A program made the translations under genes and the position numbers. From a virus (taxonomy: Duplodnaviria > Caudoviricetes): a DNA stretch of 64,000 nt. The stretch is taken from IMG/VR virus record IMGVR_UViG_3300021431_004524, positions 96,001 to 160,000 of that record; one strand, given 5' to 3'. Below, piece after piece: positions 33,495-47,995 of the stretch. Position 1 is the stretch's first letter. Every line of letters begins with the position of its first letter. The notes below the pieces were generated by a model that saw nothing but the letters and a program-made list of their open reading frames with translations, was not told where the DNA came from and did not search any database.

Positions 33495-33526
33495 TTTGGT
33501 ACTTTCAAAAATTTGTAGTACTTTTG
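33495..33526 (+). promoter_or_regulatory. Bacteroidota promoter for Y RNA / Ro60 unit
   Basis: TTTG-N20-TACTTTTG. Confidence 0.8.
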
Positions 33527-33540
33527 CAACTGAAAAACTA

Positions 33541-33692
33541 AAATAGTAGTGATTTGAGAGATACTTCGATTGGAATTGTGGGTCTGTGGTTCGAGTCCAC
33601 ATCTGCCGACAAACAGTAATAACAAACGGCAGATAGCTCAGTTGGTAGAGCAACAGTTAAGAATACACTGTCAATGATTTCCTCTATTTTTT
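33541..33692 (+). ncRNA. YrlA-like Y RNA (permuted tRNA mimic), copy A
   Basis: T arm TGTGG-TTCGAGT-CCACA precedes acceptor TCTGCCG..CGGCAGA and D arm GCTC-AGTTGGTA-GAGC; ends pair (AAATAG/CTATTT); immediately upstream of TROVE gene. Confidence 0.85.
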
Positions 33693-33747
33693 AATATAAT
33701 AAGTAAAAAATTTCTTTTAATAATAACAAATTAAATAGTGATAGAAT

Positions 33748-35412
33748 ATGGCAAAGTTTAATTCAAAGAAAGAGGCTGTAAAGCCAACAGTGATTAACGA
33801 GATGGGTGAGAAGGCTTTTGAACTTACAGCAAAGGAAAATCTCGTACAGAGTGTGTTAACCACATTCCTTCAGGGACAGTACTATGAAAGTGAGTCAGAG
33901 GAAATGAAGAAAATCCTCGATTGTGTTGAGAAGGTTGACCCATTGTTCGTGGCAAAACTTGCATTATATGCACGTAATGAGGGTAATATGAGGTCATCAA
34001 GCCATCTGCTTGGTGCAGCATTGGCAAAGCATATTGCCGGTCAGGAATATGCCGCACGTTTCTATAACAAACTCATTGTACGTCCGGATGATATGTCTGA
34101 GGTGCTTTCATGCTATGGTTCATTGAACGGTATGAATCTTACCGATAAGTCACTTCGTAAGATTCCAAACTCTATCAAGAAGGGATTCAAGGCTGCACTT
34201 GAGCGTCTCGATGCTTATCAGATTGACAAATATAAGATGAATAGCCGTCAGGTGAAACTCATTGACCTTGTTAACCTGTTGCACCCAACACCAACACAGA
34301 AGAATAAGGAGGCATATAAGCGTCTTATCAACGGTGAGTCTCTTGCTGACCTTTATGAGAGCAAGGTGTTGGAGAAGGAAATGTCAAAGGGTGGCCAGAC
34401 AGCCAAGACTGAGGAAGAGAAGACTGCCGCCAAGGAGGAAGCAATCTCTTCTGTTCTTGACAATGTTAAGGGTATGCCAATTTTCAACTTGCTTCGCAAC
34501 TTGCGTAACATTATCCTCTATGCGCCAAACCGTATCGACGATGCTATTACACAGTTGACTACAAGGGAGAAGATTGTCAATTCAAGACTGCTTCCATTCC
34601 GTTTTGCAACTGCATACAATGAAATTGAGAATATGAGTTATGAGGCAAAGAAGCCTTCATCTTCAATCGCTTTGGAAAGCGAAATCAGTAAGATGAAACT
34701 CACTCAGAACGAGTTCGCTACTATTAAGGCAAAGGTTCTTAAGGCTCTTGAAGATGCACTTGAGTATGCTTGTGAGAATATTCCTGAGTTGGAAGGAGGA
34801 ACCTACATCCTTTGCGATGACAGTGGTTCAATGAGAGGTGATATGGGTGGTCATTCACGTGTATCTGCATTCTCAAAGACGACATCATCTACAATTGGTC
34901 ACTTGTTTGCCGCAATGGTCGGTTGGAAACAGAAGGATATTTATATCGGTCTGTTCGGTGATAGGCTCATTCCAGTGGAAGTTGACCGTTCTAAGAGGAT
35001 GCTCGATTTCTGTAACTACATGGACAGTAAGGGTGGCTCATGTGGCGGTGGTACAGAGGCCGGTATTTATGACTTCCTTCGTCAGTGCATTAAGGAGAAG
35101 AAGAAGGTGGATAACGTAATCGTCTTCTCTGACTGTCAGATTGGTTCCGGTGCAGAGACCGCATGGTATGGCGTGGATAGTAGTGACCGTAGTGGACGCT
35201 TCCAGGACTTGTTCAAGGAGTTCAAGAAGATTAACCCAATGTGTAACTTCATTGTGTGCAATCTTCGTTCGGCTAAGGGCAACTCAGTATTCCACAAGTC
35301 ACAGAGAATACTTAACATCGCTGGTTGGAGTGAGAAGATTTTCGACGTGATTAAGTCCAATACCGTTGGTATGGAGGCAATCATCAAGAAGATTGAAGCC
35401 ATCGAGATATAA
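33748..35412 (+). CDS. rsr: Ro60/Rsr TROVE-domain RNA-binding protein
   Basis: KLALYARNEGNMRS, LLRNLRNI, SRLLPFRF, vWA MIDAS DDSGSM, VIVFSDCQ, IAGWSEKIF. Confidence 0.92.
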   Translation: MAKFNSKKEAVKPTVINEMGEKAFELTAKENLVQSVLTTFLQGQYYESESEEMKKILDCVEKVDPLFVAKLALYARNEGNMRSSSHLLGAALAKHIAGQEYAARFYNKLIVRPDDMSEVLSCYGSLNGMNLTDKSLRKIPNSIKKGFKAALERLDAYQIDKYKMNSRQVKLIDLVNLLHPTPTQKNKEAYKRLINGESLADLYESKVLEKEMSKGGQTAKTEEEKTAAKEEAISSVLDNVKGMPIFNLLRNLRNIILYAPNRIDDAITQLTTREKIVNSRLLPFRFATAYNEIENMSYEAKKPSSSIALESEISKMKLTQNEFATIKAKVLKALEDALEYACENIPELEGGTYILCDDSGSMRGDMGGHSRVSAFSKTTSSTIGHLFAAMVGWKQKDIYIGLFGDRLIPVEVDRSKRMLDFCNYMDSKGGSCGGGTEAGIYDFLRQCIKEKKKVDNVIVFSDCQIGSGAETAWYGVDSSDRSGRFQDLFKEFKKINPMCNFIVCNLRSAKGNSVFHKSQRILNIAGWSEKIFDVIKSNTVGMEAIIKKIEAIEI

Positions 35413-38638: not shown

Positions 38639-38711
38639 GGGGGAGAAGCTAACTTAGTAGAAGCGCTGGACTGAAAATCCAGAGGAGGTGGAGCGTAACC
38701 ACCCTCCCCCA
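38639..38711 (+). tRNA. tRNA-Phe(GAA)
   Basis: cloverleaf, CTGGA-CTGAAAA-TCCAG; atypical T loop AGCGTAA. Confidence 0.85.
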
Positions 38712-38720
38712 CTTTTTATT

Positions 38721-40690: not shown

Positions 40691-40765
40691 AGTGCGTTAG
40701 TTCAGTAGGTTTAGAATGCCACACTGTCACTGTGGAGGTCGCCGGTTCGAATCCGGTACGCACTG
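40691..40765 (+). tRNA. tRNA-Asp(GTC)
   Basis: CCACA-CTGTCAC-TGTGG, G73. Confidence 0.9.
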
Positions 40766-40797
40766 CTTAACTATCTGATTATCAGTCAGTTATGTTT

Positions 40798-42636: not shown

Positions 42637-43308
42637 ATGGATTCAAGTTGGAAATACCCAAGAACGTTTCACGTCCCGTTCTCAGAAGGGTTACAGAATG
42701 ATGACAGACGTGTTGATGACGATTGGTTTTCCTATTTGAAGGGAAAGGAACTTATTCTTAGCGAAAAATGCGACGGTGAGAATAATTCTATATCTCGTTA
42801 TGGTGTTTATGCTCGTTCTCATGCAGCACCTACAAGGAATCCTTGGTCAATAAACCTATGGGGAAATGACGGACTTTATTGGAGAGTTAAGGATTTGATT
42901 GGTGAAGATGAAATGATTTACGGTGAGAACTTATATGGTGTTCATTCAATTGAATATAACAGGTTGAAGGAATATTTCCATATGTTTGCCGTAAGGGATG
43001 AAGAGAAATGGTATTCTTGGGATGATGTTTCAGAAATGGCACAGATTCTTGATTTGCCGACTGTTCCTGTATTGGAAAGACGTTCATTTGACACTGAGGA
43101 TGAATTAAAGGAACGTGTATTATATTGGATGACGCAAGGCAGTAGGTATGGTGATACTATTGAGGGTGTTGTTATCCGTAATGCAGATAGTTATCCGATT
43201 GATGAGTTTTGCCATAATGTTGTGAAGTATGTACGTAAGAATCATGTTCAGACTGACCAATTTTGGGCAAAGAATTGGAGAAAAGCAAAAATAACGGAAT
43301 ATTATTAA
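42637..43308 (+). CDS. ATP-dependent RNA ligase family protein
   Basis: KYPRTFH, motif I EKCDGEN, GENL, EGVV, KYVR. Confidence 0.85.
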   Translation: MDSSWKYPRTFHVPFSEGLQNDDRRVDDDWFSYLKGKELILSEKCDGENNSISRYGVYARSHAAPTRNPWSINLWGNDGLYWRVKDLIGEDEMIYGENLYGVHSIEYNRLKEYFHMFAVRDEEKWYSWDDVSEMAQILDLPTVPVLERRSFDTEDELKERVLYWMTQGSRYGDTIEGVVIRNADSYPIDEFCHNVVKYVRKNHVQTDQFWAKNWRKAKITEYY

Positions 43309-46497: not shown

Positions 46498-47154
46498 ATG
46501 ACAAATTTTGGTATTCCTGAACGAGTTGGTGAATATGATATAAAAATAGGTGAGTACTCTGTTCATGTAAGTATTCATCAAATGAATGCCCGTATGTCTA
46601 AAATGGATTTGTTGGGTACAAGAGGAACAATTGGTGGAACTAAGAGTATATTAGGACATGATATAACCGTTACTGATAAAGAAGGAAATATAGTTAAAAG
46701 TATAAAGGATATCGATGAAAGATATTTTACTGAATATATGGAATCTATATATAAAGAATATATGGATATAAATCCAGAAAAATTGAGTAATAAACTATAT
46801 AGTTTTATATGTTATGGAAATGGGCGTAGATTATCGATTCCAACAGGAGGGGTTAAAATATCAAGTATAGGCGATAATTTCGTTAAGGTAATATATGCCA
46901 TTGATAAATGGGGTGTTGATATAGATGGACTTATAACTGACCTTACTAACATAGGATGTACAGTAAAGAGACTTAAAGACAAAAATATAAGGTCATTCAG
47001 TTGTTTTGTATTGTCGGTATTAATACCGAAGCAGTTAAGTATAACTGAAGGAATAGTTGGTAAGAGATTGATAAGATTAACGGAATCTAATTTGCGTATG
47101 ATAATAGAAAATTCAGTGAATAGTGTACTGAAAGAAATGAAAATAGGAAAATAA
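46498..47154 (+). CDS. hypothetical protein with C-terminal LTESNLRMIIENSV motif
   Basis: 218 aa ORF. Confidence 0.6.
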   Translation: MTNFGIPERVGEYDIKIGEYSVHVSIHQMNARMSKMDLLGTRGTIGGTKSILGHDITVTDKEGNIVKSIKDIDERYFTEYMESIYKEYMDINPEKLSNKLYSFICYGNGRRLSIPTGGVKISSIGDNFVKVIYAIDKWGVDIDGLITDLTNIGCTVKRLKDKNIRSFSCFVLSVLIPKQLSITEGIVGKRLIRLTESNLRMIIENSVNSVLKEMKIGK

Positions 47155-47189
47155 TTTTTCTTGAAATTTACAATTTTTAACGAAAAAAG

Positions 47190-47259
47190 TTTGGTAGTTT
47201 CAGAAATATGTAGTATCTTTGCACTGTCAAACGATGACAAAGAGTTCTTTAATATATTT
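47190..47259 (+). promoter_or_regulatory. Bacteroidota promoter plus hairpin and boxA-like element for Y-RNA array
   Basis: TTTG-N20-TATCTTTG, TGTCA-aacga-TGACA, AGAGTTCTTTAATATATT. Confidence 0.7.
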
Positions 47260-47282
47260 ATAATGTAGAAAACAAAAAAATT

Positions 47283-47375
47283 ACGAATAGTGATGTGAGA
47301 GTTACTTCGATAAAATAGTGTGGATATTTTCAATCAAAACTCACTCTCGCTGTTTTTCTTTCGTTTTTTTTTTTT
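47283..47375 (+). ncRNA. Y-like RNA copy B (module only, no tRNA body)
   Basis: ACGAA-TAGTGA-TGTGAGAG-TTACTTCGAT ... CTCTCGC-TGTTTTTCT-TTCGT-polyT. Confidence 0.7.
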
Positions 47376-47383
47376 AAGATATA

Positions 47384-47535
47384 AGTTGGTAGTGAAGTTA
47401 AGGGTTACTTCGATTAATTATTGGTTCGAATCCAATAGATTCCGTTTGGGAATTTTGGCGAAAAGGTTAAACGCGAAACACTTGAAATGTTTTTTAGACA
47501 GAAACTCACCCTTGCTGTGATTCTCCAATTTTTTT
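47384..47535 (+). ncRNA. Y-like RNA copy C carrying permuted tRNA-Ser(TGA)-like body
   Basis: module encloses T arm, loop-closed acceptor, D arm, then AAACA-CTTGAAA-TGTTT. Confidence 0.75.
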
Positions 47536-47539
47536 ATAC

Positions 47540-47677
47540 GGGCGTAAAGTTTAGAAAAAGAAATTTACTGAAGGTATTTTCTTTGATTTTTCAATAGTGA
47601 ACTTTACAGTTACTTCGAATGGTTAAAACGTTATCCTGTCAAGATAAAGATTCTGGGTTCGACTCCCAGTACGCCCG
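47540..47677 (+). ncRNA. tRNA-Asp(GTC) with Y-like module (copy D) inserted in its D loop
   Basis: GGGCGTA/TACGCCC-G, TTATC-CTGTCAA-GATAA; module halves in swapped order, capped by TTGA-tttt-TCAA. Confidence 0.75.
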
Positions 47678-47682
47678 CAAAC

Positions 47683-47823
47683 AACAAGTAGTGACAGAAG
47701 AGTTACTTCGATTTTTTAGCTAAGTTGGTTATAGCACAAAACAGTTAATTTTGGTGACCGGGGTTCGAGTCCCCGAAGAATCTATTTTGTAATACTCTTC
47801 TAATTTTCTCTTGTTTTTCTTTT
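47683..47823 (+). ncRNA. Y-like RNA copy E enclosing tRNA-Asn(GTT)-like body (47710-47783)
   Basis: AACAAG/CTTGTT and AGAAGAG/CTCTTCT helices flank a full cloverleaf with loop CAGTTAA. Confidence 0.75.
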
Positions 47824-47849
47824 GAAAGTAGTATGTATTTATAAGAAAT

Positions 47850-47990
47850 ATGCAGTAGTGACGTGACTGTTACTTCGATAACATTTAGACAAGTGGTTAA
47901 GTCGCAATTTTTGGGTAATTGAGAACGCCGGTCCAATTCCGGCAATGTTGTAAACAATAGCAAACAGTCACAAATTTTCTCTGTATTTTT
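47850..47990 (+). ncRNA. Y-like RNA copy F enclosing tRNA-Pro(TGG)-like body (47879-47951)
   Basis: ATGCAG/CTGTAT and GTGACTG/CAGTCAC helices flank cloverleaf with CAATT-TTTGGGT-AATTG. Confidence 0.75.
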
Positions 47991-47995
47991 ATGAT

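What the first reader, a model, noticed from the sequence alone, without database searches (positions are those of the whole stretch)
47540..47677. Otherwise normal tRNA-Asp with the Y module inverted inside its D loop
Seen: normal 5'/3' ends, G73 and GTC anticodon, but about 60 nt in the D loop carry the module halves in swapped order (CTGAAGGT-ATTTTCT, cap TTGA-tttt-TCAA, TAGTGA-ACTTTACAG-TTACTTCGA). This shows the module is a topology-independent internal-loop element. Inference: a possibly chargeable tRNA with a Ro60 handle. A plain tRNA-Asp exists at 40691, so this copy is free to specialise.
Basis: partly seen in the sequence, partly recalled or inferred. Interest (0 to 1): 0.7.

Follow-up and report, generated by a model that had tools for sequence, protein, structure and literature searches.

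The report
tRNA-Asp carrying a Ro60-type Y-RNA arm
A large gut-type phage that encodes its own Ro60 protein has a complete aspartate tRNA gene with a 64-base hairpin in its D loop, and that hairpin is the loop-closed form of the stem shared by the phage's Ro60-linked Y RNAs, a design I did not find in the papers I could search.

Summary
Window 47540-47677 folds as a full tRNA-Asp(GTC) cloverleaf. About 64 nt (47555-47618) sit in the D loop, and ARAGORN calls a normal 76-nt tRNA-Asp once they are deleted in silico.

The insert is a circular permutation (3' half, 4-bp cap, 5' half) of a module with six copies in the window. One copy lies 200 nt upstream of a phage Ro60 (TROVE) gene and gives a sub-threshold, full-length hit to Rfam YrlA.

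The module recurs with covarying stems in many phage contigs, and these nearly always encode Ro60. Loop-closed versions occur in at least three other tRNA-shaped scaffolds, one directly upstream of a Ro60 gene. Against the sister phage, the module cores show 0 differences in 204 nt against 39 in 522 nt elsewhere. The tRNA's T stem carries a compensatory double change.

Most likely this is a Y RNA of the YrlA kind whose effector domain is a whole tRNA-Asp with free ends. Ro60 binding, retention of the insert and charging are all untested. "Otherwise normal" is slightly overstated: the gene has A8, U48 and A38, and the sister phage has A32.

This scan noted the same design on other DNA. I rate it a new variant of a known kind.

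The parts
47540..47677 (+). The whole composite gene: a tRNA-Asp(GTC) body with the capped Y-type module in its D loop (138 nt; CCA is not encoded, as in the neighbouring tRNAs)
47540..47554 (+). 5' piece of the tRNA body: acceptor 5' strand GGGCGTA, A8 A9, D stem 5' strand GTTT, A14 G15
47555..47566 (+). A-rich linker from the D loop to the module (one A longer in the sister phage)
47567..47582 (+). 3'-type half of the module: inner-stem strand ACTGAAGGT plus the conserved ATTTTCT
47583..47594 (+). Cap hairpin TTGA-TTTT-TCAA. It stands where the other copies have the outer stem formed by the RNA's 5' and 3' ends.
47595..47618 (+). 5'-type half of the module: TAGTGA, inner-stem strand ACTTTACAGT, and TACTTCGA. 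In copy A the TACTTCGA motif aligns to the GNCGAA motif of YrlA.
47619..47677 (+). 3' piece of the tRNA body: D loop A-T-GG-TTA, D stem AAAC, anticodon arm (GTC at 47638-47640), T arm CTGGG-TTCGACT-CCCAG, acceptor 3' strand TACGCCC, G73
   Evidence: compensatory T-stem change at 47655/47667 in the sister phage
33535..33700 (+). Module copy A: a YrlA-type Y RNA in T arm, closed acceptor, D arm order, with its own Bacteroidota-type promoter about 33497-33535, directly upstream of the Ro60 gene
33748..35412 (+). Phage Ro60 gene (554 aa; TROVE domain plus a weak Ro60 vWA match; the nearest solved structure is Thermus phage phiLo Ro60)
47182..47225 (+). Bacteroidota-type promoter (TTTG ... TAtcTTTG) in front of the module operon B-C-D-E-F-tRNA-Met. 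The same layout precedes the arrays in related phages.
   Evidence: read from the sequence; the consensus is from memory
47275..47362 (+). Module copy B: no cargo
47380..47536 (+). Module copy C: cargo is a permuted tRNA-like domain with a closed acceptor and an anticodon arm
47678..47822 (+). Module copy E: the two halves flank a whole tRNA-Asn (47710-47783). The last two bases of TACTTCGA are nucleotides 1-2 of the tRNA.
47845..47992 (+). Module copy F: the two halves flank a whole tRNA-Pro (47878-47952)
40691..40766 (+). Plain tRNA-Asp(GTC) of the same phage (U8, C38, G15-C48). It is not a recent duplicate of the composite gene.

Best explanation
The gene encodes a Y RNA of the bacterial and phage YrlA kind, built the other way round. 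Canonical YrlA has a Ro60-docking stem made by the RNA's two ends and a tRNA-like domain with a loop-closed acceptor. Here the docking stem is closed by a 4-bp cap and the acceptor stem is open. The tRNA part is not a mimic: it is a complete tRNA-Asp(GUC) with all four arms.

The stem leaves the tRNA through the variable-length part of the D loop, between G15 and U17/G18. G18-G19 and the T loop are kept, so the L shape can still form.

Inferred life cycle:
1. The RNA is transcribed with five other module-bearing RNAs from the promoter at about 47182-47225.
2. Its ends are made like tRNA ends (RNase P, 3' trimming, CCA addition).
3. The insert stays in the mature RNA.
4. The phage Ro60 docks on the hairpin (TAGTGA/ATTTTCT internal loop, covarying helix, TACTTCGA motif).
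5. The tRNA-Asp body acts as the effector domain. It brings Ro60, and whatever Ro60 holds, to proteins that recognise tRNA-Asp, or it masks the tRNA elbow.

Shown: the architecture, the identity of the module, covariation of its helices, its association with Ro60 genes, and stronger conservation of the module than of the cargo.
Inferred: Ro60 binding, processing, retention of the insert, and the effector role.
For: 1. Architecture.
2. The module is real. It has six copies against 0.01 expected. The five relatives searched (found through their Ro60 genes) hold 2-5 copies each, all on the Ro60 strand, with reversed-pattern controls of 0-1. The inner stems differ between copies and phages yet keep pairing.
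3. Link to Ro60 and YrlA:
- Copy A lies 200 nt upstream of a TROVE protein on the same strand.
- Copy A matches Rfam YrlA over model positions 1-114 at 34.5 bits, with its ACUUCGAU aligned to the GNCGAA motif (the motif is described in PMC4201824).
- Ro60-adjacent RNAs of relatives down to 26% protein identity keep UACUUCRA.
- TROVE is present in 8 of 10 module-bearing contigs found blind. The two misses are fragments, 3% and 15% complete. All five contigs that are at least 90% complete have it. TROVE is absent from all 3 large complete phages that hold only chance hits.
4. The capped wiring is a natural, selected form:
- L230 carries it directly upstream of its Ro60 gene, in place of the anticodon arm.
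- L168, L207 and L213 carry it in place of the D arm of a GTA-anticodon scaffold, and L161 in place of the anticodon arm.
- On the alignment of six capped modules, 87% of cells pair against 68% in shuffles (0 of 500 reach it). Seven of 10 pairs change on both sides. Slid controls give 38-47%.
5. Selection on this gene, from the comparison with sister phage G001:
- The insert's module is identical.
- The T stem changed G-C to U-A on both sides (47655/47667).
- The module cores of the operon show 0 differences in 204 nt against 39 in 522 nt elsewhere, Fisher p = 3e-6.
6. No removal machinery was seen. The 235-kb record holds no tRNA splicing endonuclease and no RtcB. The insert hits no Rfam ribozyme or intron family.
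Against: - No experiment shows Ro60 binding to this module or to this RNA.
- The Rfam YrlA score of copy A is below the gathering score (34.5 against 69), and the composite gene itself does not hit YrlA.
- The gene lies 13.8 kb from the Ro60 gene, not beside it.
- The D-loop form of tRNA-Asp is found only in this phage and its near-identical sister. It is absent from G003 (complete), G004 and G005. It is therefore young, and conservation evidence for it is thin.
An unknown excision and ligation route cannot be excluded.
- The record is only about 60% complete.
Confidence: 0.6

Rival explanations
1. It is a working decoding tRNA-Asp. Either the D-loop hairpin is tolerated by AspRS, EF-Tu and the ribosome, or it is cut out and the D loop religated (for example with the RNA ligase at 42637-43308) to give a normal 76-nt tRNA.
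For: - Deleting the insert leaves a clean cloverleaf that ARAGORN calls at default settings.
- G73, G2-C71, G10 and GUC are present. These are Asp identity elements in E. coli (from memory).
- The insertion point is the length-variable part of the D loop.
- An RNA ligase gene sits in the tRNA cluster.
Against: - No endonuclease or RtcB was found, and there is no self-splicing signature.
- A plain tRNA-Asp already exists.
- The gene has A8, U48 and A38.
- The sister phage has A32, whereas all 19 plain tRNAs of the window have a pyrimidine at position 32.
- A 64-nt arm, with or without a 60-kDa protein, at the elbow should clash with the ribosomal sites that hold the elbow (inference).
- The module is conserved more strictly than the tRNA body. 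That pattern is not expected of an intron that is thrown away.
Confidence: 0.15
2. It is a by-product with no function of its own: a tRNA-Asp gene disrupted by recombination within the tandem module array, still young and decaying.
For: - It is found only in this phage and its sister.
- Junctions of tandem modules naturally create the order '3' half, spacer, 5' half', which gives an easy route to such a product.
- It departs from tRNA norms at positions 8, 38 and 48.
- The plain tRNA-Asp makes it redundant.
Against: - All four tRNA helices and both module helices are intact.
- The T stem has a compensatory double change between the two phages, and the module has no change, against a background of 7% divergence.
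- The same loop-closed design has arisen and is kept in several other Ro60 phages, once as the Ro60-adjacent RNA.
Confidence: 0.1
3. The module is not a Ro60 dock but a processing signal of the tRNA operon: a site for an RNase, or a small undescribed ribozyme. In this gene it would cut the tRNA into two halves.
For: - In copies E and F the halves flank whole tRNAs, and TACTTCGA overlaps tRNA nucleotides 1-2, so RNase P would cut inside the motif.
- All the modules lie in tRNA-rich operons.
Against: - The module also stands alone with no tRNA to process: copy B and many cargo-free copies beside Ro60 genes.
- It co-occurs with Ro60 across very different phages.
- It aligns to the Ro60-contact region of YrlA.
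- There is no hit to any ribozyme family.
Confidence: 0.1

Closest known systems
YrlA (Y RNA-like A; Rfam RF02553; Chen et al. 2014, PMC4201824; structure in Wang et al. 2018, doi 10.1101/312249)
   Same: - It is a small RNA of Ro60-encoding bacteria and phages with two modules: a stem carrying a (G)NCGAA-like motif on its 5' strand, and a tRNA-shaped domain with canonical D and T arms.
- It is encoded on the Ro60 strand.
- Copy A of this phage has exactly the YrlA order and hits the Rfam model along its full length.
   Different: - In YrlA the RNA ends are in the Ro60 stem, the acceptor is a closed loop, and there is no anticodon loop and no free CCA end (10.1101/312249).
- Here the Ro60-type stem is loop-closed, the acceptor is open, a full anticodon arm with GUC is present, and the stem leaves from the D loop, not from the anticodon-stem position.
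- The module also has extra conserved parts that are not in the Rfam model: the TAGTGA/ATTTTCT internal loop and an outer stem.
- Scores are below the family threshold.
Mycobacterium smegmatis YrlA after RNase P cleavage and CCA addition (Chen et al. 2014, PMC4201824)
   Same: A Ro60-bound tRNA-like Y RNA that ends up with an open, CCA-bearing acceptor stem.
   Different: There the open acceptor arises by cutting a closed loop, so the RNA is in two pieces and still lacks an anticodon arm. Here a single chain is wired as a tRNA from the start.
Yrl1/Yrl2 of Thermus phage phiLo with phage Ro60 (NAR 2025, PMC12135203)
   Same: - These are phage-encoded Ro60 partner RNAs upstream of the phage Ro60 gene: a stem, bulge, stem design with a CGAA motif.
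- phiLo Ro60 is the closest solved relative of this phage's Ro60.
   Different: The phiLo RNAs have conventional wiring and no tRNA body.
tRNAs with inserts: archaeal non-canonical introns, permuted tRNA genes of Cyanidioschyzon, and the 'enigmatic' introns of Lak megaphage tRNAs (Devoto et al. 2019, PMC6784885; the first two from memory)
   Same: A tRNA gene interrupted outside or inside the anticodon loop by a short structured insert.
   Different: - Those inserts are removed, or presumed removed, and carry no Ro60-type module.
- This insert shares no motif with the phage's 80-nt anticodon-loop inserts.
- No splicing endonuclease was found.

Membership tests
YrlA / bacterial-phage Y RNA | Encoded near a Ro60 (TROVE) gene, on the same strand | tested here: met
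   The phage has a Ro60 gene at 33748-35412. Module copy A is 200 nt upstream of it. The composite gene is on the same strand but 13.8 kb downstream, further than the 4 kb used by Chen et al. 2014.
YrlA / bacterial-phage Y RNA | GNCGAAN0-1G motif on the 5' strand of the Ro60 stem | tested here: inconclusive
   The module has UACUUCGA. In this gene it reads UUCGAAUG, which matches 7 of the 8 motif positions. In the other copies it reads UUCGAU. Infernal aligns copy A's motif to the YrlA motif.
YrlA / bacterial-phage Y RNA | Score at or above the Rfam RF02553 gathering score (69 bits) | tested here: not met
   Copy A scores 34.5 bits. The composite gene gives no YrlA hit even at E-value up to 10.
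YrlA / bacterial-phage Y RNA | Wiring: RNA ends in the Ro60 stem, loop-closed acceptor-like stem, no anticodon loop | tested here: not met
   The wiring is the opposite: a capped stem, an open 7-bp acceptor and a complete anticodon arm.
YrlA / bacterial-phage Y RNA | Binds Ro60 | not testable with these tools
   Only association is available: TROVE is present in 8 of 10 module-bearing contigs found blind (9 of 11 counting G018, first taken as a control) and in none of 3 control phages.
tRNA (elongator, Asp) | Cloverleaf with 7/4/5/5-bp stems, a 7-nt anticodon loop with U33, T loop TTCRANY, and G18 G19 | tested here: met
   ARAGORN calls tRNA-Asp(gtc) after deletion of 47556-47618. Rfam tRNA scores 31.5 bits on 47619-47670. 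A compensatory T-stem change is seen in the sister phage.
tRNA (elongator, Asp) | D loop of normal size (7-11 nt) in the mature RNA | tested here: not met
   The gene has about 73 nt between the D-stem strands. Whether the mature RNA keeps them cannot be tested here.
tRNA (elongator, Asp) | Near-invariant U8, Y32 and a standard 15-48 pair | tested here: not met
   The gene has A8 and G15 opposite U48. It has C32 here but A32 in the sister phage. Of the 19 plain tRNAs in the window, 18 have U8 and all have Y32.
tRNA (elongator, Asp) | Asp identity elements (E. coli set, from memory: G73, G2-C71, G10, G34 U35 C36, C38) | tested here: inconclusive
   Six of the seven elements are present; position 38 is A. 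Charging cannot be tested here.
Spliced tRNA intron (protein-dependent or self-splicing) | A splicing endonuclease or a self-splicing fold is available | tested here: not met
   The record has no PF01974 and no RtcB, and the insert has no Rfam intron or ribozyme hit. An RNA ligase (PF09414) is present. The record is about 60% complete.

The most novel reading that the evidence does not exclude
The RNA is matured and aminoacylated like tRNA-Asp while carrying Ro60 on its D-loop arm. It would be a charged, Ro60-tagged tRNA that the phage uses in tRNA conflict or quality control. For example, it could act as a decoy or sensor for host nucleases that cut GUN-anticodon tRNAs. Asp, Asn and the Tyr-like scaffolds are the cargos seen with anticodon loops. 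Alternatively it could bring Ro60-bound exonucleases to tRNA-handling enzymes. More broadly, phages would be treating the Ro60 docking stem as a portable tag that they graft onto real tRNAs at any exposed point.
Probability: 0.15. Interest if true: 0.85.

Novelty: new variant of a known kind. Interest (0 to 1): 0.66.

Why it matters
What the tRNA-like domain of bacterial and phage Y RNAs binds is still open. Wang et al. 2018 end on 'an unknown factor'.

Here nature has replaced the mimic with a genuine tRNA-Asp and kept the Ro60-type stem. In the same operon the same stem is placed on a tRNA-Asn, a tRNA-Pro, a permuted tRNA-like domain and nothing at all.

This argues that the effector side of these Y RNAs really is tRNA biology. 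It also gives a defined set of natural constructs for testing it: which tRNA enzymes, nucleases or ribosomal sites meet Ro60 through them. And it shows that the docking stem works as a module whichever end is closed, which is useful for defining the minimal Ro60 site in the Bacteroidota-phage lineage.

Tried and rejected
- The blind scan of viral contigs with the 5' half-pattern alone gave mostly chance hits inside genes. It was useful only after I read the context of each hit.
- The first MAFFT alignment of capped modules misaligned the window copy. I redid it with trimmed ends.
- My first script filter for capped modules demanded a stable cap hairpin and missed the window's own AU-rich cap. 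I relaxed it.
- BLAST of the operon against the GenBank phage collection found nothing.
- Known ribozyme, intron or riboswitch: no Rfam family hits the insert at gathering scores or at lax E-values.
- The idea that the two halves belong to two different neighbouring modules: rejected, because neither half has another complementary partner within reach and they pair with each other.
- Recent duplication of the plain tRNA-Asp: rejected, because the two genes align poorly.
- The D-loop form in closer relatives: the covariance model of the capped module finds none in G003, G004 or G005.
- A second capped copy in G009 (L161:4571-4619) has a GTTT...AAAAC stem and a GTA loop like a D-loop graft, but I found no T arm or acceptor 3' strand. 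I did not count it.
- Two reviews on bacterial Y RNAs (PMC10870794, PMC6047535) are not held and could not be read.

Full report
WHAT IS THERE

Window 47540-47677 (+ strand) reads as follows.
- Acceptor 5' strand GGGCGTA, then A8 A9.
- D stem 5' strand GTTT, then A14 G15.
- A 64-nt insert, 47555-47618.
- The rest of the D loop, A-T-GG-TTA, then D stem 3' strand AAAC and G26.
- Anticodon arm TTATC-CTGTCAA-GATAA with anticodon GTC.
- Variable region AGATT.
- T arm CTGGG-TTCGACT-CCCAG.
- Acceptor 3' strand TACGCCC, then G73.

ARAGORN does not call the gene as it stands. When 47556-47618 is deleted in silico, it calls a 76-nt tRNA-Asp(gtc) at default settings, with a perfect 7-bp acceptor. The Rfam tRNA model hits the 3' two-thirds above its gathering score, 31.5 bits against 29.

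The insert alone folds into one hairpin. The cloverleaf plus hairpin costs only 1.8 kcal/mol more than the unconstrained minimum, and the window's ordinary AU-rich tRNAs do not give a full cloverleaf as their minimum-energy fold either.

THE INSERT IS A PERMUTED COPY OF A REPEATED MODULE

TAGTGA-N9/10-TACTTCGA occurs six times in the window, all on the + strand, against 0.01 expected. In five copies the layout is:

outer stem, TAGTGA, inner stem, TACTTCGA, cargo, inner stem', (A)ATTTTCT(C), outer stem'.

The cargo differs from copy to copy:
- Copy B, 47275-47362: none.
- Copy A, 33535-33700: a permuted tRNA-like domain with a closed acceptor.
- Copy C, 47380-47536: the same kind of domain.
- Copy E: a whole tRNA-Asn.
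- Copy F: a whole tRNA-Pro.

In the finding the order is: inner stem', ATTTTCT, cap (TTGA-TTTT-TCAA), TAGTGA, inner stem, TACTTCGA. The two inner strands pair with each other (9 bp, one bulged A) and have no other partner.

The cargo still joins the helix at the TACTTCGA end. The only change is that the far end is closed by a cap instead of being the RNA's termini. So this is a circular permutation, not an inversion in space.

THE MODULE IS A Y-RNA, Ro60-LINKED ELEMENT

- The window is part of a 235-kb virus record. Its promoters are of the Bacteroidota type. A related Ro60 locus lies on a scaffold labelled Prevotella.
- The ORF at 33748-35412 is a Ro60: TROVE at E = 4.6e-16 plus a weak Ro60 vWA match. 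Its closest solved relative is Thermus phage phiLo Ro60.
- Copy A lies 200 nt upstream of it on the same strand. It matches Rfam YrlA over the whole model at 34.5 bits, below the gathering score of 69. Its ACUUCGAU aligns to the model's conserved 5' motif. Chen et al. 2014 (PMC4201824) describe that motif as GNCGAAN0-1G and take it to be the likely Ro60 contact.
- Seventeen viral loci encode relatives of this Ro60. The five whose whole records I searched each hold 2-5 module copies on the Ro60 strand, with reversed-pattern controls of 0-1.
- The stems differ between copies and phages yet stay complementary.
- Ro60-adjacent RNAs of relatives down to 26% protein identity keep UACUUCRA.
- Of ten module-bearing contigs found blind by DNA pattern, eight encode TROVE. 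The two misses are fragments, 3% and 15% complete. All five that are at least 90% complete have it. Three large complete phages with only chance pattern hits have none. A fourth contig, first taken as a control, proved to carry both a module-like site and TROVE.

THE LOOP-CLOSED WIRING RECURS ELSEWHERE

- L230 (Ro60 63% identical) has, directly upstream of its Ro60 gene, an RNA with a 7-bp open acceptor and normal D and T arms. The capped module stands in place of the anticodon arm.
- L168, L207 and L213 have a GGGGGAG acceptor (with encoded CCA in L168 and L213) and a CTGTAAA or CGGTAAA loop. The capped module stands in place of the D arm. The caps covary: TGG/CCA, TGATT/AATCA, TAG/CTA.
- L161 has an acceptor, a small hairpin, the capped module and a T arm.
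- On the alignment of these six capped modules, 87% of cells pair against 68% in shuffles (0 of 500 reach it). Seven of ten pairs change on both sides. Slid controls give 38-47%.
- A covariance model built from the alignment finds only the finding's copy in this window and in sister phage G001. It finds none in G003 (complete), G004 or G005. The tRNA-Asp graft is therefore specific to this lineage.
- Earlier notes of this scan report the same design, including D-loop grafts, in other genomes. I did not test those cases.

SELECTION ON THIS GENE

The sister phage G001 (Ro60 95% identical) has the same gene.
- The module is unchanged.
- The T stem changed from CTGGG/CCCAG to CTTGG/CCAAG, a compensatory double change at 47655 and 47667.
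- Position 32 went from C to A.
- One A was gained at each junction of the insert.

Over the whole operon the ten module core segments show 0 differences in 204 nt, against 39 in 522 nt elsewhere (Fisher p = 3e-6). The shape of the tRNA and the sequence of the module are kept.

Features that matter for decoding look less protected. The gene has A8, U48 and A38, and the sister has A32. Of the 19 plain tRNAs in the window, 18 have U8 and all have a pyrimidine at 32.

HOW IT MOST LIKELY WORKS

I read it as a Y RNA whose effector domain is a real tRNA-Asp. It would be made from the operon promoter near 47182-47225 and end-processed like a tRNA. It would keep the hairpin, and Ro60 would dock on the hairpin next to the tRNA elbow.

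Capping should not hinder docking. In the frog complex Ro60 binds the side of the helix and mainly its 5' strand (as summarised in PMC4201824 and 10.1101/312249). L230 uses a capped stem in the RNA beside its Ro60 gene.

Every step from Ro60 binding onward is inference.

RIVALS

- A decoding tRNA whose insert is tolerated or excised. An RNA ligase lies at 42637-43308. However, the record holds no splicing endonuclease and no RtcB, and the insert has no ribozyme signature.
- A young, non-functional recombination product.
- A processing signal rather than a Ro60 dock.

COMPARISON AND NOVELTY

The closest known family is YrlA. The gene shares the two-module logic and the motif. It fails the family's wiring (closed acceptor, no anticodon loop, ends in the Ro60 stem) and its Rfam threshold.

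I found no paper among those searchable that describes a Y-type stem on a complete tRNA. Two reviews could not be read.

I class it as a new variant of a known kind. This scan has already met the same variant on other DNA.

Noticed in passing
L118:5790-5990 (sister phage G001, upstream of its Ro60 gene): In the sister phage the same promoter and Ro60 gene are kept. The YrlA-type copy A is replaced by an unrelated stretch of about 170 nt that has no module and no Rfam family.
   Followed up: partly
window 47710-47783 (tRNA-Asn inside module copy E): The anticodon loop is CAGTTAA, with A at the normally invariant U33. The sister phage has CTGTTAA. The two genes differ at 11 positions.
   Followed up: partly
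window 47704-47711 and 47871-47878: In copies E and F the TACTTCGA motif overlaps the first one or two nucleotides of the enclosed tRNA. RNase P cleavage would therefore cut the motif. The module may act on the precursor, or these tRNAs may not be released.
   Followed up: no
L233:3820-3960; L138 (G004:C1:56872-59895), - strand, module 5' half starting at base 1367 of the reverse complement: A further wiring. The module halves flank a tRNA-like body without its own acceptor, and CTTCG of the motif pairs with a downstream CGAAG as an acceptor-like helix.
   Followed up: no
L136 about 2050-2320 (G001, between copies E and F): The sister phage has about 270 extra bases here, GC-richer than their surroundings, with no Rfam hit.
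   Followed up: partly
L237:1480-1580 (G009): A capped module sits between GTTT and AAAAC and is followed by an ACAAT-CTGTAAA-ATTGT arm. It resembles a D-loop graft on a GTA tRNA, but no T arm or acceptor 3' strand follows.
   Followed up: partly
window 38639-38712: The plain tRNA-Phe also has A at position 8, so A8 alone does not mark the composite gene as aberrant in this phage.
   Followed up: no
window 46498-47154: A 218-aa ORF with no Pfam match lies between an intron-bearing tRNA and the promoter of the module operon.
   Followed up: no
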